Positions 5,473 through 64,000 of a stretch of DNA of 64,000 bases are shown here, piece after piece (the stretch's first letter is position 1; each line of letters starts with the position of its first letter). Made by a program: the position numbers and the translations under genes. The stretch comes from Octopus vulgaris (lineage: Eukaryota): NCBI GenBank assembly GCA_951406725.2, contig OX597842.1, forward strand, positions 6,200,001 through 6,264,000. The letters run 5' to 3'. The notes under the pieces are model-generated. The model saw only the letters and a list, made by a program, of their open reading frames with translations. It had not been told where the DNA came from and made no database searches.

Positions 5473-6134
<662 letters not shown>

Positions 6135-6352
6135 TTATTTCATAAATATTTGCCATGGAGGCATTACAAAGAGGGGTCGAACAAGAACAGACAAACATAA
6201 AAGGGTGAAGTAGCTGTAGCGATTAAATATTTACAATTTAAAGATATAATAATTTAATAAATATGTTTATAACTTTTGACTATCTCTGAAGGATAGGCAT
6301 CCGACCACCAGGGTAGACCCCTTGCTTTTTCTTTCCTGATTTTGGCTTCCAC

Positions 6353-7270
6353 TTACCTGGTGCCAAACACTCCCAGCTTCCTCGCCACAGGCTTCCATCT
6401 TCTCATGAATCTGTATCGTGACAGGTACCTTTTCTCCAGCCTGATCTTATTACTGAGGTGGTAACTAAAAAAGTTAACCAACCCGTGGCCGGATACAAAG
6501 GTACCCGACACTATGCCTCTCACATGCGTCTTCCATACTGTTTCTTTCAGTATGGCTACTACGCAGAAAAAGCAAACCTTCCTTTCCCTGTTAAGAGCAG
6601 GTGGCAGCACAATCTCGATGATAGATTCAGCTGATAGCTGTACTCTTCCTATTGATAACAACAGTTGCTCTGCGAAAACTATCAGTCTCGTTAATTCCGG
6701 ACACTCCACAAATGCATGCATGACGGTTTCCCTGTCCTGCCCGCACCTCAAACCTGTCGGCGAGACGGCACCTCCGTGCCTTGACAGTTTATCACGAACA
6801 GATAACGCCGCACGGAAGCACTGCCAAGCCAGAGATTTCTGGTAATTGTCCAGATACCCCGGCCCGAAAGTTCTCCGGAACATGTTGATTAACTGATTTT
6901 CATCGTAGACCAGGGTCTTCCCCAAGGCGTCTTCGGACTTAACCTCCACTAACCCACTATAGAAATCTGCGGTGGAACTCTTGTTGCCGGCATTGCCAGT
7001 CCCCCAGCCTAGGCCTCTGCTTGATCCAATTACCAATGTCTGCTAAGGACGTTAATTACGGAAGGTAGAACCGAACGTGCGGTGACCACACCTGCTCTCC
7101 ATCCAGGTAAAGCCAGAGGTGACTCGACCTTAACGCGAACTTTCGCATTCTCAGCCAAGGCATCCCAGCTTGGTCTCTGTAGCAACCATCACATGCATAC
7201 CATATGATCTGAGGTCGTCGAGGAAACAAGCTTGCTTCCACTTCGAGCTCAGACCACGCACATTCAAACA
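6353..7270 (-). pseudogene. C-terminal fragment of L1/Tx1 ORF2 (zf-RVT-like)
   Basis: GMPWLRMRKFALRSSHLWLYLDGEQVWSP.. and YQKSLAWQCFRAALSVRDKL..LRCGQDRETVMHAFVEC (degenerate C-terminal CCHC). Confidence 0.75.
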
Positions 7271-7375
7271 TCCAAGGTTAAGTGCAGTCATTTAAAACAA
7301 AAGAAAAGCAAGGGTTCTACTTACCCTTTGACTTTTCTTTTTTTGGTGATGCTGGGGCTGACCTCACCTGCTCCT

Positions 7376-8702
7376 TCAAAACTCCTTCAAATACCGCGGA
7401 AGGTCCGGGATGTTTACGATGGTCCTCGGATGCCTACCCTTCATTTCATTATACAGTTTTTCTGATATCCAGGCACATCTCTCTTCCGTGCCTTTGGGCT
7501 GCTGCAACAGCTCCACGGTGTGGGGCTTTTTTTTAAAAAATGTCCTTAATATATTCATCCCTGGTATCAAACTTTACCAGGGTTTTCGTCCTATCTTTGT
7601 TCTTTTTTATTTTCTCTTTTGGGACAGTGGAGCAGGATCTTTTTTTCTGTGGTGTGTTGTTTTTCTTCTTTTTTCTTTGTGGGGGATATGGATGGGGAAG
7701 GTGCATGTGTTCTCTTTTTTCTGGGTGTCTTGAACTCCCCCTCGGTCACCTCCATGCTGTCTTCCAGAGGAGTTGTTACTTCAGAGGGGGTGGGTGCATT
7801 TGTTTCTGTTGGGACCGGTGTGTGCATGGCCTGGGGTTTTTGGGTGTTTTTTTTGGGAGCAGGTGCCACAGATGGTGGGGTGGGAGTATTTGTTTCTGTG
7901 GGGGCTAATTTGTGTGTGGGTTTTTCTGTAGTTGAAGGGCCTGATGTCTGCGCATTTCTTTTCTTTTTGTTTCATATTTCACAGTCTACACGAATGTGGC
8001 CTTTTTTCCACATTCGAAACACGTGGGCTTTTTGCCCTCTACTTGAATCTTGAGGGCAATATCTTCCCCCAAGAGCACTCTTTCTGGCAGCATTTCGATG
8101 TCTTCTTGTGTTCCCTGAATAATCGCAGAGATGCTCTGCCCTTGCCAATTTTGTGGGGCAGTGCATGTGATTTGGAGGAAGGTGATTTTGTCCGTCCTGT
8201 TATACAACAGGGCGGCCATCACCTCCCTTGCCTCAGTTTCTGATGGTACTTCATTTATTCTGACGTGTGTTGTTCTCCTTCCCATGTATGTTGGGAGCAG
8301 CACCACCTCCTTCGTTTTCAGAGGAGTCACTGAGTGCTCTTGGGCTTTTTCGGTCGTCTCAAATCTGGCCTCTATTGTTCCATATGCCCGGCACCTCGCT
8401 ATGTATTTTATATCTTTCCATATAGGGACCAGACATTTTTCTATTTCGCACTTTTCGAAGTGTTTGAATTTTTTCAATGAAGGACAGTACGTTTTGTAAA
8501 CGACTGTCCTTCTCTTCAGATTTTCAACACTAGGGGAGGGTGAGATCTTTATATCCCCACCCTCCTCTTTCATTCTCTCAAAAAGCTCGGAGAGCTTCTC
8601 CGTTTGTATTACTACATATTTGCACGATACAGCGACTACTAGCGCGAACTTTTTTGCTGGCTCATGCAGCTGGTTTGTTTCTTGAATTATTTCGACCGAC
8701 AT
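7376..8702 (-). CDS. L1/Tx1-type ORF1 (gag-like zinc knuckle plus low-complexity tail), split by homopolymer frameshifts
   Basis: 238-aa ORF ends KPTCFECGK and continues GHIRVDC in another frame (CX2CX4HX4C); the frameshift lies in an A-run whose length differs between the two copies. Confidence 0.7.
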
Positions 8703-8730
8703 AATTCGTTCGAAATAAATTTAATCCCAG

Positions 8731-9033
8731 AAAATGGGAAACCTACAATTTTTTACTTTTTTTTTCAGCGAGGACAACAGTTCAAATCCCACCCCCGCTG
8801 GGGGGCCAGACGTAACAACAAAGCCTATAACGTTCGAAATTTTTTTTTTCCAGAATAATAACAATACAGAATCCCTCCAAAAACGGGAAACCTATAATAT
8901 TTTTTTTCTCACAACGAGGACACCAGTTCAAATCTCACCCTCGATAGGGGCGGATGCTACAATAGAGCCTACAACGGCTAAAATTTAATTTTTCAAGCAA
9001 TAATAAATTGCTTGTCCCCCAAAACGGGAAAGT
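8731..9033. repeat. About 145-bp tandem monomers (about 2.1 units) in the LINE 5' UTR
   Basis: aaaa(t/c)gggaaacct..cgaggaca.cagttcaaatc.caccc repeats at about 8731, 8879 and partially 9021. Confidence 0.75.
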
Positions 9034-9231
9034 TTAGGGATAATAGCTATAAAATTATTGAAAGTTGAGATAGTGAGAAAAGGAGTGGCAAAAAGTGTCT
9101 AATTCAGTAGCAGAAGTACGAGGGACGTTCAATAAGTCTCTGAACTACTTGCAGTTGTTTGATCTAACTGCAATTTTGCATGTGCAATTATTTATATCTC
9201 TATATATTAAGTGGCAAATTACAGCTCTGAA

Positions 9232-9331
9232 NNNNNNNNNNNNNNNNNNNNNNNNNNNNNNNNNNNNNNNNNNNNNNNNNNNNNNNNNNNNNNNNNNNNN
9301 NNNNNNNNNNNNNNNNNNNNNNNNNNNNNNN
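9232..9331. other. Assembly gap (100 N)
   Basis: Directly visible. Confidence 1.
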
Positions 9332-10371: not shown

Positions 10372-10400
10372 GGAACCATGTAGTTCGTAAGCAAGCTACT

Positions 10401-13359
10401 TTATTTCATAAATATTTGCCATGGAGGCATTACAAAGAGGGGTCGAACAAGAACAGACAAACATAAAAGGGTGAAGTAGCTGTAGCGATTAAATATTTAC
10501 AATTTAAAGATATAATAATTTAATAAATATGTTTATAACTTTTGACTATCTCTGAAGGATAGGCATCCGACCACCAGGGTAGACCCCTTGCTTTTTCTTT
10601 CCTGTTTTTGGCTTCCACTTACCTGGTGCCAAACACTCCCAGCTTCCTCGCCACAGGCTTCCATCTTCTCATGAATCTGTATCGTGACAGGTACCTTTTC
10701 TCCAGCCTGATCTTATTACTGAGGTGGTAACTAAAAAGTTAACCAACCCGTGGCCGGATACAAAGGTACCCGACACTATGCCTCTCACATGCGTCTTCCA
10801 TACTGTTTCTTTCAGTATGGCTACTATGCAGAAAAGCAAACCTTCCTTTCCCTGTTAAGAGCAGGTGGCAGCACAATCTCGATGATAGATTCAGCTGATA
10901 GCTGTACTCTTCCTATTGATAACAACAGTTGCTCTGCGAAAACTATCAGTCTCGTTAATTCCGGACACTCCACAAATGCATGCATGACGGTTTCCCTGTC
11001 CTGCCCGCACCTCAAACCTGTCGGCGAGACGGCAGCTCCGTGCCTTGACAGTTTATCACGAACAGATAACGCCGCACGGAAGCACTGCCAAGCCAGAGAT
11101 TTCTGGTAATTGTCCAGATACCCCGGCCCGAAAGTTCTCCGGAACATGTTGATTAACTGATTTTCATCGTAGACCAGGGTCTTCCCCAAGGCGTCTTCGG
11201 ACTTAACCTCCACTAACCCACTATAGAAATCTGCGGTGGAACTCTTGTTGCCGGCATTGCCAGTCCCCCAGCCTAGGCCTCTGTTTGATCCAATTACCAA
11301 TGTCTGCTAAGGACGTTAATTACGGAAGGTAGAACCGAACGTGCGGTGACCACACCTGCTCTCCATCCAGGTAAAGCCAGAGGTGACTCGACCTTAACGC
11401 GAACTTTCGCATTCTCAGCCAAGGCATCCCAGCTTGGTCTCTGTAGCAACCATCACATGCATACCATATGATCTGAGGTCATCGAGGAAACAAGCTTGCT
11501 TCCACTTCGAGCTCAGACCACGCACATTCAAACATCCAAGGTTAAGTGCAGTCATTTAAAACAAAAGAAAAGCAAGGGTTCTTCTTACCCTTTGACTTTT
11601 TCTTTTTTGGTGATGCTGGGTCTGACCTCACCTGCTCCTTCAAAACTCCTTCAAATACCGCGGAAGGTCCGGGATGTTTACGATGGTCCTCGGATGCCTA
11701 CCCTTCATTTCATTATACAGTTTTTCTGATATCCAGGCACATCTCTCTTCGGGCTGCTGCAACAGCTCCACGGTGTGGCGCTTTTTTTTAAAAATATGTC
11801 CATAAAGTATCAAACTTTACCAGGGTTTTTGTTCTATCTTTGTTCTTTTTTATTTTCTCTTTTGGGACAGTGGAGCAGGATCTTTTTTTTCTGTGGTGTG
11901 TTGTTTTTCTTCTTTTTTCTTTGTGGGGGATATGGATGGGGAAGGTGCATGTGTTCTCTTTTTTCTGGGTGTCTTGAACTCCCCCTCGGTCACCTCCATG
12001 CTGTCTTCCAGAGGAGTTGTTACTTCAGAGGGGGTGGGTGCATTTGTTTCTGTTGGGACCGGTGTGTGCATGGCCTGGGGTTTTTGGGTGTTTTTTGGGG
12101 GAGCAGGTGCCACAGATGGTGGGGTGGGAGTATTTGTTTCTGTGGGGGCTAATTTGTGTGTGGGTTTTTCTGTAGTTGAAGGGCCTGATGTCTGCGCATT
12201 TCTTTTCTTTTTGTTTCCATATTTCACAGTCTACACGAATGTGGCCTTTTTCCACATTCGAAACACGTGGGCTTTTTGCCCTCTACTTGAATCTTGAGGG
12301 CAATATCTTCCCCCAAGAGCACTCTTTCTGGCAGCATTTCGATGTCTTCTTGTGTTCCATGAATAATCGCAGAGATGCTCTGCCCTTGCCAATTTTGTGG
12401 AGCAGTGCATGTGATTTGGAGGAAGGTGATTTTGTCCGTCCTGTTATACAACAGGGCGGCCATCACCTCCCTTGCCTCAGTTTCTGATGGTACTTCATTT
12501 ATTCTGACGTGTGTTGTTCTCCTTCCCATGTATGTTGGGAGCAGCACCACCTCCTTCGTTTTCAGAGGAGTCACTGAGTGCTCTTGGGCTTTTTCGGTCG
12601 TCTCAAATCTGGCCTCTATTGTTCCATATGCCCGGCACCTCGCTATGTATTTTATATCTTTCCATATAGGGACCAGACATTTTTCTATTTCGCACTTTTC
12701 GAAGTGCTTGAATTTTTTCGATGAAGGACAGTACGTTTTGTAAACGACTGTCCTTCTCTTCAGATTTTCAACACTAGGGGAGGGTGAGATCTTTATATCC
12801 CCACCCTCCTCTTTCATTCTCTCAAAAAGCTCGGAGAGCTTCTCCGTTTGTATTACTACATATTTGCACGATACAGCGACTACTAGCGCGAACTTTTTTG
12901 CTGGCTCATGCAGCTGGTTTGTTTCTTGAATTATTTCGACCGACATAATTCGTTCGAAATAAATTTAATCCCAGAAAATGGGAAACCTACAATTTTTTAC
13001 TTTTTTTCTCAGCGAGGACAACAGTTCAAATCCCACCCCCGCTGGGGGGCCAGACGTAACAACAAAGCCTATAACGTTCGAAATTTTTTTTTTCCAGAAT
13101 AATAACAATACAGAATCCCTCCAAAAACGGGAAACCTATAATATTTTTTTTCTCACAACGAGGACACCAGTTCAAATCTCACCCTCGCTAGGGGCGGATG
13201 CTACAATAGAGCCTACAACGGCTAAAATTTAATTTTTCAAGCAATAATAAATTGCTTGTCCCCCAAAACGGGAAAGTTTAGGGATAATAGCTATAAAATT
13301 ATGAAAGTTGAGATAGTGAGAAAAGGAGTGGCAAAAAGTGTCTAATTCAGTAGCAGAAG
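10401..13359 (-). mobile_element. L1/Tx1-like element, copy 2 (within duplicated block 10372-13474)
   Basis: Near-identical to 6135-9118, including both flanks. Confidence 0.8.
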
Positions 13360-13361
13360 TA

Positions 13362-14630
13362 CGAGGGACGTTCAATAAGTCTCTGAACCACTTGCAGTTG
13401 TTTGATCTAACTGCAATTTTGCATGTGCAATTATTTATATCTCTATATATTAAGTGGCAAATTACAGCTCTGAACTAATTGTGGTTTCTGATTTACAGGT
13501 GTTTGAACTGAGTCAAGTGTGAAATGGAGCCTGTTGAGTATCGAGCAGTGATCCGGTTTTTGTATTTGAAAGGATGCACACCACGGGAGACTTTTGATGA
13601 AATGAAAGTAACTTATGGTGATGATGCCCCATCATATGACCTTGTAAAACGCTGGCATCGTGAATTCAAACATGGTCGGAACTCTGTGGAAACAGCTCCC
13701 AGATCTGGTCGCCCCGCTTCTGCCATTGATGAGGCATTTGTCCGTCAAGTTGAGGCTGCCATTTTGGAAGATCGACGCATAACTATTCGCCAAATAGCCC
13801 ATGAGGTCAAGATTAGTACCGGGTCTGTGGAAACTATCATTCATGACCATTTGCATATGCAAAAGGTGTCTGCCAGATGGATTCCCAGGTTGCTCACACC
13901 TTTCCAGAAGCAAGAAAGCGTCGAGTACTCGAGGATGAATTTGGAGATGTGCCAAGAAGATGAGTCAAAATTTTTCAAAAGACTGATTACACAGGATGAA
14001 ACCTGGGTCCATCACTATGGTCCAGAGACCAAAGCCCAGTCAATGCAGTAGAAGCACCGTGACTCATCTCCTCCAAAGAAGGCAAGGATGCAGCCCTCCG
14101 CTGGCAAGGTCATGCTCACAGTCTTCTGGGACCAGGACGGAGTAGTGATGACAGATTTCCTGGCAAAGGGTACCACAATTACAGGAGCCTATTATGCTTC
14201 ACTTTTGAGGAAATTAAGAGAAGTTATCAAAATCAAGAGTAGGGGCAAGATCAGCAAAGGCATCCTCCTCCTGCAGGACAACGCTCCGGTCCACAACTCG
14301 CGTGTCGCCAGATCAGAAGCACAGGCAGGCAGCTATGAACTCCTCCCCCATACCCCCTACTCTCCTGACCTTGCACCCTCTGATTTTCACCTCTTCCCAG
14401 CCATGAAGTTGTTCTTGAAAAGAAAGCGTTTCCCAGATGATGCAGCCTTGATTTCTGAAGTCACGTCGTGGTTGGAGACAAAAACGGTCTCCAGAGCTGC
14501 ATCAAACGATGGGAGAAATGCGTAACTCTGGGTGGTTCCTATGTAGAAAAAGACTAATAACTGTACCAAGTTTCGTTGCTCTACTGCTATGGGAAGTGGG
14601 TCAGGAGTATTACTTATTGAACGCCCCTCG
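13362..14630 (+). mobile_element. Near full-length mariner (DD34D) transposon
   Basis: TIRs cgagggacgttcaataagt / acttattgaacgcccctcg, TA TSD at 13360-61 and 14631-32. Confidence 0.95.
13524..14545 (+). pseudogene. Mariner transposase with one in-frame stop and a 3' deletion
   Basis: HTH N-terminus, WIPRLL, ITQDETW, LLQDNAP, YSPDLAPSDF; TAG at 14049 in place of W. Confidence 0.92.
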
Positions 14631-16841: not shown

Positions 16842-17010
16842 ACTTTTTACTCTTTTACTCGTTTTAGTCATTTGACTGCGGCCATGCTGGAGCACCGCCT
16901 TTAATCGAGCAACTCGACCCCGGGACTTATTCTTTTGTAAGCCCAGTACTTATTCTATCGGTCTCTTTTGCCGAACCGCTAAGTAACGGGGACATAAACA
17001 TACCAGCATA
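16842..17010 (-). mobile_element. SINE family A 3' fragment
   Basis: cagtcatttgactgcggccatgctggagcaccgcc-type tail, gccgaaccgctaag. Confidence 0.85.
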
Positions 17011-17019
17011 AACATACCA

Positions 17020-19480
17020 GCACACAATATCATGATCCCCAAACAATATCATTGCAGCGGCGCTTAAGAGCAATGATTTCTCCAGGACCACCGCCCAGAT
17101 AGAGCGAAAGAAACGTGAATTCCTCCGTTCATATGCTCTAATCAGGCAACACATGGACACACTGGACATCATCCTGGGAGGTGACTGCACCAGGGATGAC
17201 CAAAAGGATGGAGAAAGCATCCAGGACCCAACAAAAGACACAACTGAGAGACCTGCAACCAAGAGAAACAATGGCATATGTCCAGCTCCCAACACAACTG
17301 AAGACCAAAGAGGTGTGATGGCCGCAAAAAAAGGAAAGCACCCTAAAATCGACGGAAAACAAGAGGTAAAAGACAAGAAAACTAAAACAAACACTGTTCA
17401 GAAAAAAAAAACAGAAGAACCCCAGCAAGAGCTACAAGGGCAAAAGCAGGAGCATCTGCAAATTCTACCTGAAAGGAGACTGCTGGCATGACGACGATGG
17501 TGCAAACTGTCATTTTGCACATCAGAAGACCTGCCAAAACCGCAAGGACACAAGACAAATATCCCTTCCTTGGGGAGAACAAAATGAAAAAGAAAAATAT
17601 CAAAGAAGGCAAAATAGTACACTGACTACTCCTGAAAGACGATATGCGGATGTAGTGCGCGGTCCAAAAAAGACACTGCATAGCCCAACAAATGGCCAGC
17701 TTCACCCAGATGTGAGAAGGGCAGCAGTTGAACAGCAATCCTTTTTGTGCATGGCACAAAAAATTGTTCAGCAGTTTGTATGTAGCCAGGTCTGGCTACA
17801 AACACAAAGCTGGAACTACAACCACATAAGGCCACCACTAACAGATTCAGGATGGCCACCACAAACACCACAAACACAAAAATATTTCTACTGAATGTAG
17901 AAGGGCTGCTGTGCGGCAACTGTAAAAGGAAAATCTCATTCCTGAGAAACCTTGTGCATGCAATCAAGCTCTATGCATGGCACTCATAGAAACGCATCTT
18001 GGACCCGATATAGGGGATGCAGAAATAAACATACCACAATATGTTGTCATACGCTCAGATAGAAAAAGGAGGAGTCATGGTGGAGTTGCAGTGTACATCC
18101 GAGATGACCTCACGCCCCAGGTCCTGTTGTCATATTCAAACTCAGTGTGTGACACTCAAATTGTACACATAAGACAACTGAATATCGTCATATGCACTAC
18201 ATATCGCCCACCGGATGCCCCAAATCACACAGGCATGTTTGAAGACTGCCTAACAAAAATAGGAGAAGTCCTCACCAACCTTGAACAGCACAACAGTGTA
18301 TTCTTCATGGGTGACTTTAACCTCCCCAATGTGGAATGGCCTGGGGGGCAGATGCTCCCAGGGATGACACACCATCAGCGGGCACAGGTGGAGTCCCTGC
18401 ACCATCTCACAAATGCCTCTTTCATGGAGCAAATAGTGCTGCAACCAACTAATATCACAAACAATATGGATATTATCCATAATGTTAAAGTGATGCCGAC
18501 AATGATCTTTGATCACAACATAATAGAGCTGTCTATGTATGGACCAAAAGCCCCCGCGAACACGCAGCCTATACGAAGCATCCACAATCTCTCCAAATTA
18601 TTCTTTCATAAGGCAAATTGGAAGTTGATTGAGAAAGAGATCCTCAGACAGGATTGGCCTGAATGTCTCTCCACATCAGACATTGACATGAAACACAAAC
18701 GTTTCATGTCCATAATACAAGCTATATGTGACAAATATGTCCCAGTGTGCAGGGCCAGCACACGCAAAAACAAAAACAGGATCCCTAGAGAAAGGAAGAT
18801 TCTTATGAGACGACGGACAAGGATTGCGAACCGCCTGAGAAAGCACACCAAAAGTGGTGAAAAGCCTCGGCTCGAGAGAATGCTACAGGAAATTGAGAAA
18901 AGTCTGCATCAGTCTCATGAAAAGGAGAGAGCAGATAAAGAAGCTTGGGTAATAGAAAATATCAAGTCAAACCCTAAAGCTTTCTTTAAGTTTGCCAAAG
19001 AGACAGCCACAGTGCGCCAGAGAATAGGACCTCTCTTCCAAGGGGATGGCTCCCTCGCAGGAAATTCCACGAGGATGAGTGAAATGCTGAGCGAACAGTT
19101 CCGGGGTGTGTTCACTGCACCTCTGGGACACAGGCATGTGAACAACCCAGAGGAATTCTTTGCCACTTTACCTATGGCCAAGGAGACAGATATTGAGTGC
19201 ATCAACATTGAAGATGGTGGTGTCACACTGGCCATGGGGGGGGGATTGACGCAGACTCAGCTGCTGGACCTGATGGATTTCCGGCGGTCCTTCTCAAATC
19301 GTGCAAACGAGCCCTTGCGGGACCGCTGCGGCTTCTTTTTCGGAGCTCTCTTGCGGGTGGTGGGCTCCCGGTCAGGTTGAAGGAGGGGTGATATGCCCTG
19401 TCCATGGAAGAGGAGCCAGAGCGGATGCTAAAAATTGTGGGCCTATCTCTCTGACCTCACACATCGGCAGGGTCATGTTA
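17020..19480 (+). mobile_element. CR1-group LINE, 5' part: ORF1 remnant, APE endonuclease, start of RT; 3' truncated
   Basis: CCCH finger ICKFYLKGDCWHDDDGANCHFAH near 17452-17525; LNVEGL, ETHL, RSDR..HGGVAVY, YRPP, MGDFNLP, DHNII; AGPDGFP and degenerate NYRPISLTSH. Confidence 0.9.
17977..19240 (+). pseudogene. LINE ORF2 endonuclease and linker
   Basis: ORF 17977-19380 has APE motifs; the frame shifts at the G-run near 19240. Confidence 0.85.
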
Positions 19481-19489
19481 TGACTCGTT

Positions 19490-19608
19490 ATAAGGACACA
19501 GGAAATGTGTCATGGCCGACAGGAAGCGATGGTGCTTCCTAGGGCTAAATAGCAGTGGTGTGATTCCCTTCATGGGACTGTCACATTAAGTTGAGAGTAT
19601 ACAACTAC
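19490..19608. mobile_element. Diverged copy of the arm of the 46709-47141 inverted-repeat element
   Basis: tataaggacacagg.aaatgtgtca..tgcttcctagggct..ctgtcac..gtatacaac matches 47015-47133. Confidence 0.65.
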
Positions 19609-19651
<43 letters not shown>

Positions 19652-19759: not shown

Positions 19760-19877
19760 TTAACATTTAAATAATGAGTGAGATAAATTGAATATTAGTT
19801 TAATTAATATCAATTTAGAACCAGTAGCCTAGCATATATAAAAAAATCTGAAAAATCAGAATTCGCCAAAAGAAACC

Positions 19878-20845
19878 AATAGAATAAGTACTGGGCTTAC
19901 AAAAGAATAAGTCCCGGGGTCGAGTTGCTCGATTAAAGGCGGTGCTCCAGCATGGCCGCAGTCAAATGACTGAAACAAGTAAAAGAGATAAAGAGATAAG
20001 CATTAAAAGACATCTCTTCACAAGAGTTCTAGCGCTGCTTCAAACAGTGGAAAATACGTCTGGGCGGATGCTTTGCTTCAAATGGAGAATATTTTGAAGG
20101 CGATAAAAGTGTAAACATGTAAAGTAAGTGAATAAAATAACATTGCAAAATTCCGGTTTCTTTTTGGTAATCTCTCGTATATAGACGTAAGTGTGACTAT
20201 ATGGTAAGAAGCTTGCTTCCCAAACACGTGGTTCCGGGTTCAGTCCCACTGCGTGGCACTTTGGGCAAGTTTTTTCTACAATAGCCTCAGACTGCCCAAA
20301 GCCTTGTGAGTGGTTTTGATAGATGGAAACTGAAAGAAGCCCATCATGTATTTATGTGTGCGTGCGTGCGCGCACGCATGCGTGTTTGTATGTGTCTTAG
20401 TGTTTGTGTTTGTCCCAATCACAGCTTGAAAACCGGTGTGGTTTGTTTACGTTCCTTAGCGGTTCAGCAAAAGTGTCCAGCAGGCTTTAAAAAATTCCTG
20501 GGGTCGATTTGTTTGACTAAAACGAATCTAGGCTGTGCTCCAGCATGGTCGCAGTTAAATTACTGAAACAAGTAAGGGAATAAAAGAAAAGAATAAGCAC
20601 AAGTGTGACTGTGCGGTAAGAAACTTGCTTCCCAACCACATGGTTCCGGGTTCAGATCCAATGCATGGCACCTTGGACAAGTGTCTTCTTCTTAAGCTTC
20701 GGGCCGACCAAAACCTTTTGAGTGGACGAACCAACAGATTAGGAACCAGGCTTTAAGAATTATAAGCACTGAGACGATTTGTTAATCTAAAATGCTTCAG
20801 GGCTGTGCCCCAGCTTGGGCGCAGGATAATGACTGAAACAAGTGA
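19878..20845 (+). mobile_element. Cluster of three SINE family A copies or fragments
   Basis: Tail 19878-19990; near full 20190-20590; diverged 20600-20845. Confidence 0.8.
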
Positions 20846-35886: not shown

Positions 35887-40759
<4,873 letters not shown>

Positions 40760-40760
<1 letters not shown>

Positions 40761-42105
40761 ACTTGATAAGTGATACCCAACATGGTTTTCGACCAGGTAG
40801 GAGCTGCCTGACCCAACTCTTACAACATTATGACTGGGTGTTGAGGCAGTTACTCAACAAATCAAATGTGGATGTAATATACCTTGTTTTTGCAAACGCT
40901 TTTGACAAGGTGGATCATGGTATGCTATGCCACAAACTGCGTGACCTCGGCATAGCTGGAAAACTTGGAGTATGGTTACATGACTTCCTGAAAGATAGGA
41001 GTCAGGCAGTGGTAGCTAATGGAGCCATCTCTATGAACACACAAATAGTGAGTGGTGTTCCACAGGGCACTGTCTTGGGACCACTGCTTTTTATAGTGGC
41101 CATCTTAGATATGCCCTCGAATGCCCGGATAGCCACTCTGGCAAGCTATGTAGATGATACGAAAGTCTCACAGAAAATACAGAACCCCAGCAATGTTGCA
41201 CGCACACCTGCAGCAGGAATTGGACTCAATTTACAGATGAGCCGAGGATAATTCTATGCAGTTTAATGCTGAAAAATTCCAGGCCCTACGCTACCAGCTT
41301 CCAAAACTGAATATTAAACCTACAGGGTACACCGGTCCACAGGGAATTTCAATCCCAGAGCCTAAGTCAGTGTGGGACCTGGGTATCGACATGAGTGATG
41401 ATACCTCTTTCCAAGTGCACATTACCAGGATGGCGGCAAAGTGCAGACGACTGGCTGGATGGATCCTAAGAACATTCAGAACCAGAGATAAAGAAACCAT
41501 GATGGTCCTCTGGCGGACATTCGTCTTCAGCCGCCTGGATTACTGCTCACTGCTATGGTCACCCACCAGTGTGAGATTAACATCGGACCTTGAAGCAATT
41601 CAGAGAAGATTCACAAAGAAATCGTCTCTTTGCAACAGCTCAGCTACTGGGAAAGGTTGAAACAGCTAAGACTCTACTCCCTGGAGAGAAAACGGGAGAG
41701 GTATGCAGTAATATATATCTAGAAGATCCTGGAAGGAATTGTGCCAAATTTTGGCACAATGAACGGGACGACACTGCATAGTGCCAAAGATCCCAGCAAT
41801 GCCATCACGCTTCAGGACCAGCTACTGCAACAGCCTAGGTTTGAAGGGCCCACAGCTTTTTAATATTCTCCCAAAGAGTCTGAGGAACTTGCACAAAGTA
41901 GATATAGGTGTTTTTAAATCAAAGCTGGACCTCTTCCCGTCGAGAGTCTCAGATGAGCCTACTTCACGGCAAGAGGTGCAAACGAGGGTAGCTATATCAA
42001 ACTCCATTCTTCATCAAGCGCCACATACTAGAGGAGGCTCCTAGTAATAACAGTGTAGCGCAAAACAGCGGTGCATCACAGCATGGCCGCAGTTCTGAGC
42101 TGAAA
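40760..42105 (+). mobile_element. CR1-group LINE 3' half (RT and 3' UTR), 5' truncated
   Basis: QHGFRPGRSC, AFDKVDH, SGVPQGTVLGP, YVDDTK, RLDYCS.LWSP; 3' end gcggtgcatcacagcatggccgcagttctgagctgaaac. Confidence 0.92.
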
Positions 42106-42115
42106 CCCCCCAAAA

Positions 42116-42211
<96 letters not shown>

Positions 42212-42252
42212 GTGTATATATATATATTATATATATATATATATATATACAC

Positions 42253-42714: not shown

Positions 42715-43800
42715 TCGGAATGGCCCTATCCTACAGTGCACCGTAGCTGTTTCTTTGGCATACCTGTAGAAAGCTCTGGGGTTAGATTTTATGTTGTCTA
42801 TAGCCCAGGCTTCTTTGTCTGCTCTTTCTTTTTCATGGGAGAGTTGCAGACATTTTTCAATTTCCAGCAGTTTCATTTTCAGGCGGGACTCTTCACTGCT
42901 TTCAATTTGTTTGTTTAGGCGATTTGAAACTTTTGTACGCCGTCTCATTAGAATTTTCCTCTCTCCGGGGATTTTGTTGTGTACAGTGGCCTTTCTCTCT
43001 GGGACACATTTGTAGCATATGGCTTGCATTACAGACATGAATTGTTGAAGTTTCATGTCGATGTCTGGTGAGGAGAGACATTTAGGCCAGTTTTGTTTGA
43101 GGATCTCTTTTTCAATTTGTTTCCAGTTTGCCTTATGGAAGTTCAAGCTGGAAAGAATCTGAGAGTTTCTTGTAGGCTGCATGTCCATGCTTTCCTTTGG
43201 CCCGTACATGGTCAGCTCTACCATGTTGTGATCCGAGAGTAGTGTCGGTGTCACTTTCACATTATGGATGAGATCCATATTATTTGTGAAGCAGAGATCC
43301 AGTATGTTACCTACCCTGGTTGGTTGGAGTATTATTTGCTCCATGTACAGAGTGTTGATGAGGTTCAGGAGGGACCTCGCCTGTCCTCGTTCGCATCGTG
43401 TCATTCCTGGGAGAGAAAGGCCCTCGGGCCATCTGACATTGGGCAGATTGAAGTCTCCCATAAGAAGTACACTTATGTGTTGTTCTAATGTGACTAGAAC
43501 TTTTTCTAATTTTGTAAGGCAGTCTTCAAACTTGCCCACATGGCTTGGGGCATCTGGAGGGCGATATGTAGCACATATAACTGCACCGAGTTGCCTTATA
43601 TGTACAATTAGTGTGTCACACACCGAATGTGAGTATGACAAAAGGACCTGGGGTGTGAGGTCCTCGCGGATGTACATAGCAACTCCACCATGACTCCTTT
43701 CTTTTCTATCGGTCTGTAATACAACATACTGTGGTATGTGTATTTCCGCATATCCGGTTTCAGGTGTGTTTCCGTAAGTGCTATGCATAAGGCTTGATTG
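42715..43800 (-). mobile_element. CR1-group LINE endonuclease fragment
   Basis: HGGVAMY, YRPP, MGDFNLP, PTRVGNILDLCFTNN, SDHN; paralogue of 17977-19035. Confidence 0.9.
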
Positions 43801-43802
43801 CA

Positions 43803-43869
<67 letters not shown>

Positions 43870-62390: not shown

Positions 62391-62489
62391 TGACTTGACA
62401 CGTGACCACACCACCCTTCCGGAGTGTAAGCGACATAGAGATATGTTCGTAAACAGCGATGTGGATGCATGGATGGACATCAACATTAG

Positions 62490-64000
62490 TGGTGATGCTC
62501 GTGGTGATGGTGGTGGTGGTGATGGTGGTAGTGGCGATAGTGGTGGTGGTGATGATGGTGGTGGTGGTGGTGAATAGTAACGATGGTGATGGTCATGGCG
62601 GTGGTGGTGGTGGTGAAGATGGTAGTGATGGTGGCGGTAGTAGTAGTGGTGGTGGTAGTAGTGGTGATGGTGGTGACGATGATGGTGGTGGTGGAGATGG
62701 TGGTGGTGATGGTGGTGGTGATGGTGGTGGTGATGGTCGTCGTGGTGATGGTGGTCGTGGTGATGGTGGTGGTGGTGGTGGTGATGGTGGTTTTGGTGGT
62801 GGTGGTGATGGTGATGGTGGTGGTGGTGGTGGTGGTGATGGTGATGGTGGTGGTGGTAATGGTGGTGGTAATGATGGTGGTGGTGGTGGTGATGGTGGTG
62901 GTGGTAATGGTGGTGGTGATGGTGGTGGTGGTGATGGTGGTTTTGGTGGTGGTGGTGATGGTGGTGGTGGTGGTGGTGGTGGTGGTGGTGGTGGTGGTGG
63001 TGGTGGTGATGGTGGTGGTGGTGATGGTGGTGGTGATGGCGGTGGTGATGGTGTTGGTGGTGATGGTGATGGTGATGGTGGTGATGGTGGTGGTGGTGAT
63101 GGTGATGGTGGTGGTGATGGTGATGGTGGTGTGGTGATGGTGGTGGTGATGGTGGTGGTGATGGTGGTGGCGATGGTGGTGGTGATGGTGGTGGTGGTAA
63201 AGTGGTGGTGATGGTGGTGGTGGTGATGGTGGTGGTGATGGCGGTGGTGATGGTGATGGTGGTGATGGTGGTTTTGGTGGTGGTGGTGGTGATGGTGATG
63301 GTGGTGGTGATGGTGATGGTGGTGGTGATGGTGGTGGTGATGGTGGTGGTGATGGTGGTGGTGATGGTGGTGGTGATGGTGGTGGTGATGGTGGTGGTGG
63401 TGGTGATGGTGGTGGTGATGGTGGTGGTGATGGTGATGGTGGTGGTGATGGTTATGGTGGTAGTGATGGTGGTGGTGATGGTGGTGGTGATGGTGGTGGT
63501 GATGGTGGTGGTGGTAAAGTGGTGGTGATGGTGGTTTTGGTGGTGGTGGTGATGGTGATGGTGGTGGTGATGGTGATGGTGGTGGTGATGGTGGTGGTGA
63601 TGGTGGTGGTGATGGTGGTGATGGTGGTGGTGGTGATGGTGATGGTGGTGGTGATGGTGGTGGTGATGGTGGTGATGTTGATGGTGGTGATGGTGATGGT
63701 GGTGGTGATGGTGGTGATGGTGATGGTGGTGGTGATGGTTATGGTGGTGGTGATGGTGGTGGTGATGGTGGTGGTGATGGTGGTGGTGATGGTGGTGGTG
63801 ATGGTGGTGGTGGTAAAGTGGTGGTGATGGTAGTGGTGGTGATGGTGGTGGTGATGGTGGTGGTGGTGATGGTTGTGGTGATGGTGGTGGTGATGGTGGT
63901 GGTGGTGATGGTGTGGTGGTGATGGTGGTGGGATGGTGGTGGTGATGGTGGTGGTGGTGAATAGTAACGATGATGATGGTGATGGTGATGGTGGTGGTGA
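62490..64000. repeat. (GGT)/(GAT) trinucleotide array of at least 1.5 kb
   Basis: Directly visible; runs off the window end. Confidence 0.95.

What the first reader, a model, noticed from the sequence alone, without database searches (positions are those of the whole stretch)
19040..19480. Patch of sense-strand A-to-G hypermutation in a CR1-like LINE: possible genomic fossil of ADAR hyper-edited RNA
Seen: this A-rich ORF2 becomes abruptly A-poor and G-rich (25 A in 18901-18960 versus 4 A in 19321-19380). Conserved non-LTR RT motifs are altered by changes explicable as A>G: NYRPISL reads NCGPISL (tgt ggg at 19436-41), PIHK reads PVHG, HISK reads HIGR, and a G-run appears near 19236-45. Many surviving As follow G (gac, gat, gaa, gag). 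Established: ADAR hyper-editing gives clustered A>I(G) and disfavours a 5' G; coleoids edit very heavily. Inference: an edited transcript was reverse-transcribed and integrated, so RNA editing became a heritable mutagen that disabled this copy. The element also stops at the end of the patch (3' truncation, unusual for a LINE). The ancestral residues are inferred from general motif knowledge, not from an aligned consensus.
Basis: partly seen in the sequence, partly recalled or inferred. Interest (0 to 1): 0.8.

Follow-up and report, generated by a model that had tools for sequence, protein, structure and literature searches.

The report
RNA-edited LINE copies fixed in genome
A 430-base stretch of a jumping gene (a LINE) carries 52 one-way A-to-G changes in the pattern of the RNA-editing enzyme ADAR, likely written into inherited DNA when an edited RNA was copied back into the genome, and the same pattern marks the likely parent of the family's youngest burst of copies.

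Summary
Confirmed and extended. Against its own subfamily, window 19040-19477 has 52 of 145 As changed to G, 2 of 96 Ts to C, and 11 other changes in all. Neighbour bias is ADAR-like (5' T 15/19, A 20/48, C 11/43, G 6/33), and codon positions are hit evenly. Contigs from three runs guessed to be DNA (three studies, two species labels) carry 25-27 of the 52 Gs; the other 25 were not covered. It is not alone: 4 of 159 other sampled copies or fragments have A>G runs (shuffles 0.09; T>C 0), one an independent event in the same interval. The family's youngest clade shares an all-or-none block of 21 A>G among 105 As in ORF1, against 1 in 800 elsewhere on that branch, so an edited parent likely stayed active and spread. 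Best reading: ADAR edited LINE RNA, which was reverse-transcribed into the germ line. The double-stranded partner was not found, and no RNA was examined. That editing disabled or truncated this copy is not shown: A>G made no stops, and the 3' loss looks like a separate deletion. Ten literature searches found no report for germ-line non-LTR copies.

The parts
17036..19477 (+). LINE copy of the older subfamily, 3'-truncated (about 2.4 kb of a roughly 3.8 kb element)
17036..17894 (+). ORF1 remnant in two frames; lysine-rich linker followed by a Cys/His zinc-finger-like motif (motif seen by eye, no Pfam hit)
17212..17449 (+). ORF1 linker homologous to the A>G block of the family's youngest clade; the window copy has G at only 4 of 19 block sites
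17926..19477 (+). ORF2 remnant: endonuclease domain, linker, and the first ~90 bases of the RT domain (RVT_1 starts near 19386 by projection from an intact copy)
19042..19471 (+). A>G hypermutated patch, 52 of 145 As, sense strand, ADAR-like neighbours
   Evidence: 27 of 52 sites inside long contig pieces
19236..19244 (+). Run of 9 G formed partly from edited As; +1 and +2 G in runs X2 and X3; frameshifts ORF2
19478..19489 (.). 12-base filler at the junction, matching neither neighbour's family
19490..19609 (+). Cut arm of an unrelated repeat that often occurs as inverted pairs; no A>G excess (4 differences from the majority of 19 copies, 1 of them A>G)

Best explanation
The patch is a one-time burst of sense-strand A-to-G changes that likely arose when ADAR deaminated a double-stranded stretch of this LINE's RNA, which was then likely reverse-transcribed and inserted in a germ-line cell, so that each inosine became a heritable G. 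Shown: one-sided spectrum, neighbour bias, even spread over codon positions, presence in contigs of three runs, and recurrence in independent copies and on the branch to the youngest clade. Inferred: ADAR as the enzyme; editing before reverse transcription; a partner strand supplied in trans by antisense transcripts of this abundant family or by an inverted copy at the source locus; a later deletion removing the 3' part. Because a heavily edited ORF2 message would make a damaged protein, either editing came after translation or the RT was supplied by another copy (inferred, untested). When the edits fall in a tolerant region (the ORF1 linker), the new copy can likely stay active and found a subfamily.
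For: Spectrum: 52/145 A>G versus 2/96 T>C, p=3e-11. 5' neighbour T 15/19, A 20/48, C 11/43, G 6/33, p=5.5e-5, the order U>A>C>G given for human ADAR1/2 in PMC3113232 (passages). Edits by codon position 17/52, 16/47, 19/45, whereas inherited subfamily differences fall 17:10:44. Contigs of 305, 328 and 299 bases in X1, X2 (organism A, different studies) and X3 (organism B) match with 1-2 other letters at depth 36-58. Runs of 4 or more private A>G in 4 of 159 other copies or fragments, versus T>C 0, G>A 1, C>T 1; shuffles give 0.09 for A>G and 0 of 500 reach 4. Their pooled 5' neighbours are A 16, T 10, C 3, G 3, p=5e-4. L007 has 14 A>G among 118 As and almost no other private change in 3 kb, and differs from the window at 9 of 9 non-A/G diagnostic columns inside the interval, so it is an independent event. 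Youngest clade: 21 of 105 As in the ORF1 linker versus 1 of 800 in the rest of the element on the same branch, p=7e-20; 5' A/T 19/61 versus C/G 2/44, p=9e-4; 26 of 28 young copies carry all or all but one of the covered block sites and 2 carry none. All of these clusters are sense-strand, as expected if the element's own transcript is the substrate.
Against: No double-stranded partner found: no same-subfamily inverted copy in the window, in 30 kb before or 20 kb after it, or within about 10 kb of L007, and the unedited RNA of the interval does not fold unusually well (z -1.26). 25 of 52 edited sites and the 3' junction lie outside any listed long contig piece; 19341-19409 has no cover in any run. 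Run type is only guessed as DNA, and one run may be the assembly's source. L007 and the small clusters were not checked in reads. The window prefers 3' G (20/35 versus A 17/49), while PMC5625713 (passages) reports 3' A enrichment for invertebrate hyper-editing, octopus included. 6 of 20 block sites of the youngest clade are also G in most copies of the oldest group, and the masked tree does not separate the 2 block-free young copies from the rest (support 40). The sample is top BLAST hits, not random, and L007 was pulled by an edited query. In HeLa assays ADAR1 did not edit L1 RNA (PMC5224506 passages).
Confidence: 0.84

Rival explanations
1. ADAR edited an RNA, but only the patch was written back into a copy that was already in place, by RNA- or cDNA-templated repair or gene conversion, perhaps in the same event that made the 3' deletion.
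For: The patch has a sharp 5' edge (0/53 As edited in 18801-18950) and ends 6 bases before a deletion junction with a filler.
Against: The patch carries the same older-subfamily alleles as the rest of the copy. L007 is a near-new insertion whose private changes are nearly all the edits. Every cluster is sense-strand, whereas host transcripts could run either way. Sharp edges are also expected from a duplex of limited length.
Confidence: 0.07
2. Adenosines were deaminated in DNA after insertion, by ADAR on an RNA:DNA hybrid (R-loop with an antisense transcript) or by an unknown DNA adenine deaminase.
For: ADARs can deaminate dA in DNA/RNA hybrids with their usual sequence preferences (PMC5389660 abstract).
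Against: It predicts no tie to the element's sense strand, yet clusters of 4 or more are A>G in 5 copies and T>C in none. Background A>G and T>C rates are equal (2.49 and 2.48 per 1000). The adjoining repeat is not edited. Fixing 36% of As would need inosine repair in DNA to fail (established knowledge). Deamination of the cDNA during reverse transcription would read T>C, not A>G.
Confidence: 0.04
3. The patch, or the ORF1 block, came by recombination from a diverged G-rich subfamily, or built up by GC-biased conversion or relaxed selection.
For: Sister subfamilies exist (74% identity; 617 motif hits). 6 of 20 ORF1 block sites are G in the oldest group too.
Against: Other substitution types are not raised, and T>C is 2/96. 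There is no third-position bias. Motif scans find only the window and L007. The youngest clade lacks the oldest group's non-A/G alleles in the block, and the block is all-or-none.
Confidence: 0.03
4. Assembly artefact: edited RNA reads or a platform error pattern leaked into the assembly.
For: 25 of 52 sites lack contig cover and run types are guessed.
Against: The same Gs stand in short-read contigs of three studies and two species labels. The ORF1 block is in 26 copies on many contigs.
Confidence: 0.02

Closest known systems
APOBEC-edited LTR retroelements fixed in vertebrate genomes (PMC4866542, passages)
   Same: Deaminase-made, strand-biased cluster of one substitution type inherited in a retroelement copy; found by comparing copies of one subfamily.
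   Different: Those are G>A from deamination of cDNA. That screen covered LTR elements only, found other mismatch types very rare, and found invertebrates at noise level. Here the change is A>G, the element is non-LTR, and the likely substrate is RNA.
ADAR-hypermutated proviruses, e.g. bovine leukaemia virus (PMC8025556, passages)
   Same: A>G clusters ascribed to ADAR1, carried through reverse transcription into integrated DNA.
   Different: Somatic infection, retroviral LTR, 7 or more sites in about 70 bases. Here germ-line, shared by two species labels, 52 sites in 430 bases, and in one lineage apparently propagated.
ADAR hyper-editing of repeat RNA in metazoans, highest in octopus (PMC5625713 and PMC9068888, passages)
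   Same: Dense A>G clusters in repeats with 5' G depletion.
   Different: Described as RNA-versus-genome differences, not as genomic changes. The 3' preference reported for invertebrates is A; here it is G.
ADAR1 restriction of human L1 (PMC5224506, passages; review PMC4982230, passage)
   Same: ADAR acting on a LINE life cycle.
   Different: Editing-independent there, with no edits found in L1 RNA. The 2016 review lists a role of ADAR editing in subfamily evolution as not yet determined, which is what the ORF1 block addresses.

Membership tests
ADAR hyper-editing signature | Cluster of A>G on one strand, other changes at background | tested here: met
   52/145 A>G, 2/96 T>C, 11 other changes
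ADAR hyper-editing signature | 5' neighbour order U>A>C>G | tested here: met
   79%, 42%, 26%, 18%; order from PMC3113232
ADAR hyper-editing signature | 3' neighbour preference | tested here: inconclusive
   G 20/35 highest: fits human ADARs, not the 3' A enrichment reported for invertebrate hyper-editing
ADAR hyper-editing signature | Long double-stranded RNA substrate | tested here: inconclusive
   No local inverted partner and no strong internal fold; a partner in trans or at the source locus cannot be seen
ADAR hyper-editing signature | Inosine in the RNA; ADAR active in the germ line | not testable with these tools
   No RNA was examined; ADAR genes were not searched in this genome
APOBEC DNA-edited retroelement | G>A cluster on the sense strand | tested here: not met
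   G>A 4 of 87; G>A runs match shuffles
APE-type non-LTR retrotransposon (LINE) | ORF2 with N-terminal endonuclease and RT, preceded by ORF1 | tested here: met
   PF14529, PF03372 and PF00078 in intact copies; ORF1 readable
CR1 clade | Placement of the RT within CR1 against reference clades | not tested
No reference set on hand; Atlas hits give only EN+RT clusters, one auto-named jockey-family.

The most novel reading that the evidence does not exclude
Germ-line ADAR editing is a recurrent, heritable mutagen of LINEs: it leaves dead hypermutated copies and also re-coded the ORF1 of a master element, which then produced the family's youngest burst, so RNA editing directly drives retrotransposon subfamily evolution and writes itself into the genome.
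Probability: 0.65. Interest if true: 0.9.

Novelty: new variant of a known kind. Interest (0 to 1): 0.82.

Why it matters
It gives a direct route from RNA editing to inherited DNA change, and a fossil record of germ-line ADAR activity that can be dated and compared across species. It makes an open question testable (whether ADAR editing mutates retrotransposons and shapes their subfamilies; listed as undetermined in PMC4982230, and suggested as unexplored for cephalopods in PMC9068888). It suggests that both outcomes occur: heavy damage in ORF2, and tolerated re-coding in ORF1 with later spread. It also warns that A>G clusters at multi-copy repeats in RNA data can come from edited genomic copies.

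Tried and rejected
The RT fragment at 40758-42242 and the reverse fragment at 42722-43803 are a different subfamily (about 74%), not the missing 3' half; the reverse one ends at the equivalent of 19031, just before the patch, so it is not the partner. The inverted SINE-like pair at 16845-16975 and 19862-19992 flanks the copy but does not include the patch. A mild A>G excess upstream (11/355 versus T>C 2/211) is not significant (p=0.15). The mirror T>C motif scan was uninformative: 617 hits, the 100 listed all one string that looks like a sister subfamily's variant. One search missed the LINE and gave nothing. Run X10 (organism C) has no contig across the patch; this is absence of cover, not proof of absence. 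No RNA holder was listed, which says nothing about expression. An earlier lineage step shows 4-5 A>G within 35 bases of ORF1, suggestive only. 'G>A clusters' seen in three copies were first set aside and turned out to be the ancestral state of the ORF1 block. Three look-ups of earlier scan findings returned nothing. Two papers were not held.

Full report
Setting. The window is G000:C29:6200001-6264000 in a 2.8 Gb, 227-contig assembly. Size, repeat make-up and about 30 large contigs would fit an octopus (N=30 in PMC9068888, passages), but that is inference; no call named the host. The element at 17036-19477 (+) belongs to a LINE family with at least 1238-2057 candidate copies over this interval. 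Intact copies encode endonuclease plus RT. 'CR1' was not tested.

The observation. Against 29 paralogs, 19040-19477 has 51 A>G in 144 As versus 12 in 519 upstream. Against 29 hits pulled with the unedited upstream part (the window's own older subfamily) it has 52 of 145 with 11 other substitutions in 430 columns, and the 27 of those copies that reach into the interval have 0-3 A>G there. T>C is 2 of 96. Edited fractions by 5' neighbour are T 15/19, A 20/48, C 11/43, G 6/33 (p=5.5e-5); by 3' neighbour G 20/35, A 17/49, T 8/31, C 7/28 (p=0.02). The 5' order is that of human ADAR1 and ADAR2 (PMC3113232, passages). The 3' G preference differs from the 3' A enrichment reported for invertebrate hyper-editing (PMC5625713, passages). 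Codon positions are hit evenly (17/52, 16/47, 19/45), unlike inherited subfamily differences (17:10:44), so the changes were not filtered by selection; 31 codons are missense, 12 silent, none a stop.

Is it genomic? Of 24 listed runs, 3 hold 38-50% of the stretch's words; I laid those 3 and one run of organism C. Single contigs cover 19008-19312 (X1), 18986-19312 (X2) and 18986-19282 (X3, organism B) with 1, 1 and 2 other letters; they include 27, 27 and 25 of the 52 edited sites. The G-run is 1 and 2 bases longer in X2 and X3. So the edited allele is in three studies and likely predates the split of organisms A and B. Limits: run type is guessed, one run may be the assembly's source, 19341-19409 has no cover in any run, and only 32 of 3527 pieces were listed, none across the 3' junction.

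The 3' end. After 19477 come 12 filler bases and the cut arm of an unrelated repeat, which is not edited. A deletion that removed both the LINE's 3' part and part of that repeat is the simplest reading (inferred); the patch may once have been longer. The copy has other lesions, so editing cannot be named as what disabled it.

Other copies. I piled 160 copies or fragments (430 kb): top hits of six DNA searches, nine longer fetches and 20 of 40 further listed places. Left out were element positions below 460 and above 3780, and columns within 4 of a gap. Runs of 4 or more private same-type changes occur in 4 of 159 non-window copies for A>G, 0 for T>C, 1 for G>A and 1 for C>T; 500 shuffles give 0.09, 0.01, 0.91 and 0.93. 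One of the four (L007, G000:C9) was pulled by an edited query; the other three clusters lie outside the query stretches, and the last 20 fetched copies added none of 4 or more. L007 has 14 A>G among 118 As and an open ORF2. It shares 7 of its 12 private sites with the window (p=0.01) but belongs to the young subfamily and differs at 9 of 9 non-A/G diagnostic columns in the interval: two independent events that favour the same sites. Genome-wide motif scans needing at least 3 of 5 chosen As as G returned only the window and only the window and L007, so heavy editing at a given site is rare, roughly 1-2 per 1000-2000 copies.

An edited parent. Copies that reach the 5' end show a ladder of subfamilies. 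On the branch to the youngest clade, polarised with 2 sister and 5 older copies, 21 of 105 As in a 230-base ORF1 linker became G, against 1 of 800 As in the next 2.5 kb (p=7e-20); other changes number 4 and 5. 5' A/T sites are 19/61 and C/G sites 2/44. Of 48 copies scored, 26 carry all or all but one of the covered block sites; 2 young copies and the intermediate groups carry 0-2; the oldest group carries 4-7. The linker stays in frame, with 12 missense and 7 silent codons between two natural copies. 64 of 134 sampled copies carry this clade's three alleles outside the block, but queries came from a member of the clade, so this overstates its share. Caveats: 6 of 20 block sites are G in most copies of the oldest group, and a tree with A/G columns masked does not separate the 2 block-free young copies (support 40).

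Mechanism. Shown: strand-specific clusters with ADAR-like neighbours, heritable, recurrent. Inferred: ADAR deaminates a duplexed part of the LINE transcript, and reverse transcription reads inosine as G at insertion. Editing of the cDNA would give T>C, and editing at the locus would not keep to the sense strand. The partner strand was not found nearby or within the RNA; antisense transcripts from the many copies are the likely source.

Literature. Ten searches of the held library found no report of germ-line non-LTR copies with ADAR clusters. The library lacks most subscription papers, and two relevant papers were not held. Nearest cases: APOBEC G>A fossils in LTR elements (PMC4866542, passages; its supplements, not read, may bear on A>G counts), A>G clusters in somatic BLV proviruses (PMC8025556, passages), editing-independent restriction of L1 (PMC5224506, passages), and a review calling ADAR's role in subfamily evolution undetermined (PMC4982230, passage). 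Passages of PMC2873906, PMC5974252, PMC8586724 and PMC12941027 gave no such case; the last proposes edited-RNA-to-DNA mutation as a hypothesis.

Verdict. New variant of a known kind; interest 0.82.

Noticed in passing
L016/L082 = G000:C6:42338379-42338609 (homologous to window 17212-17449): Shared block of 21 A>G in the ORF1 linker of the family's youngest clade; likely an edited master that stayed active.
   Followed up: yes
L007 = G000:C9:39610217-39610793: Very young copy with 14 A>G in about 340 bases and an open ORF2; independent of the window; not checked in reads.
   Followed up: partly
G000:C11:55543350-55543394; C17:1276383-1276410; C4:176449680-176449689: Small sense-strand A>G clusters (9, 5 and 4 sites) in three further copies.
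   Followed up: partly
window 19236-19244: Editing helped to form a G run whose length differs among runs X1, X2 and X3 (9, 10, 11).
   Followed up: partly
window 6106-9231 and 10372-13474: 3.1 kb tandem duplication at 98.4% of a minus-strand element with a zf-RVT hit; the window's only N gap (9232-9331) lies between the copies, so it may be an assembly duplication.
   Followed up: no
window 13512-14525: Mariner-type transposase in two pieces split by a stop (PF17906, PF01359).
   Followed up: no
window 16845-16975 and 19862-19992: Inverted SINE-like pair, 95% complementary, flanking the LINE copy.
   Followed up: no
window 40758-42242 (+) and 42722-43803 (-): Two pieces of a sister LINE subfamily (about 74%) in opposite orientation.
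   Followed up: partly
window about 62450-64000: Long G-rich low-complexity repeat with GC skew near 1.
   Followed up: no
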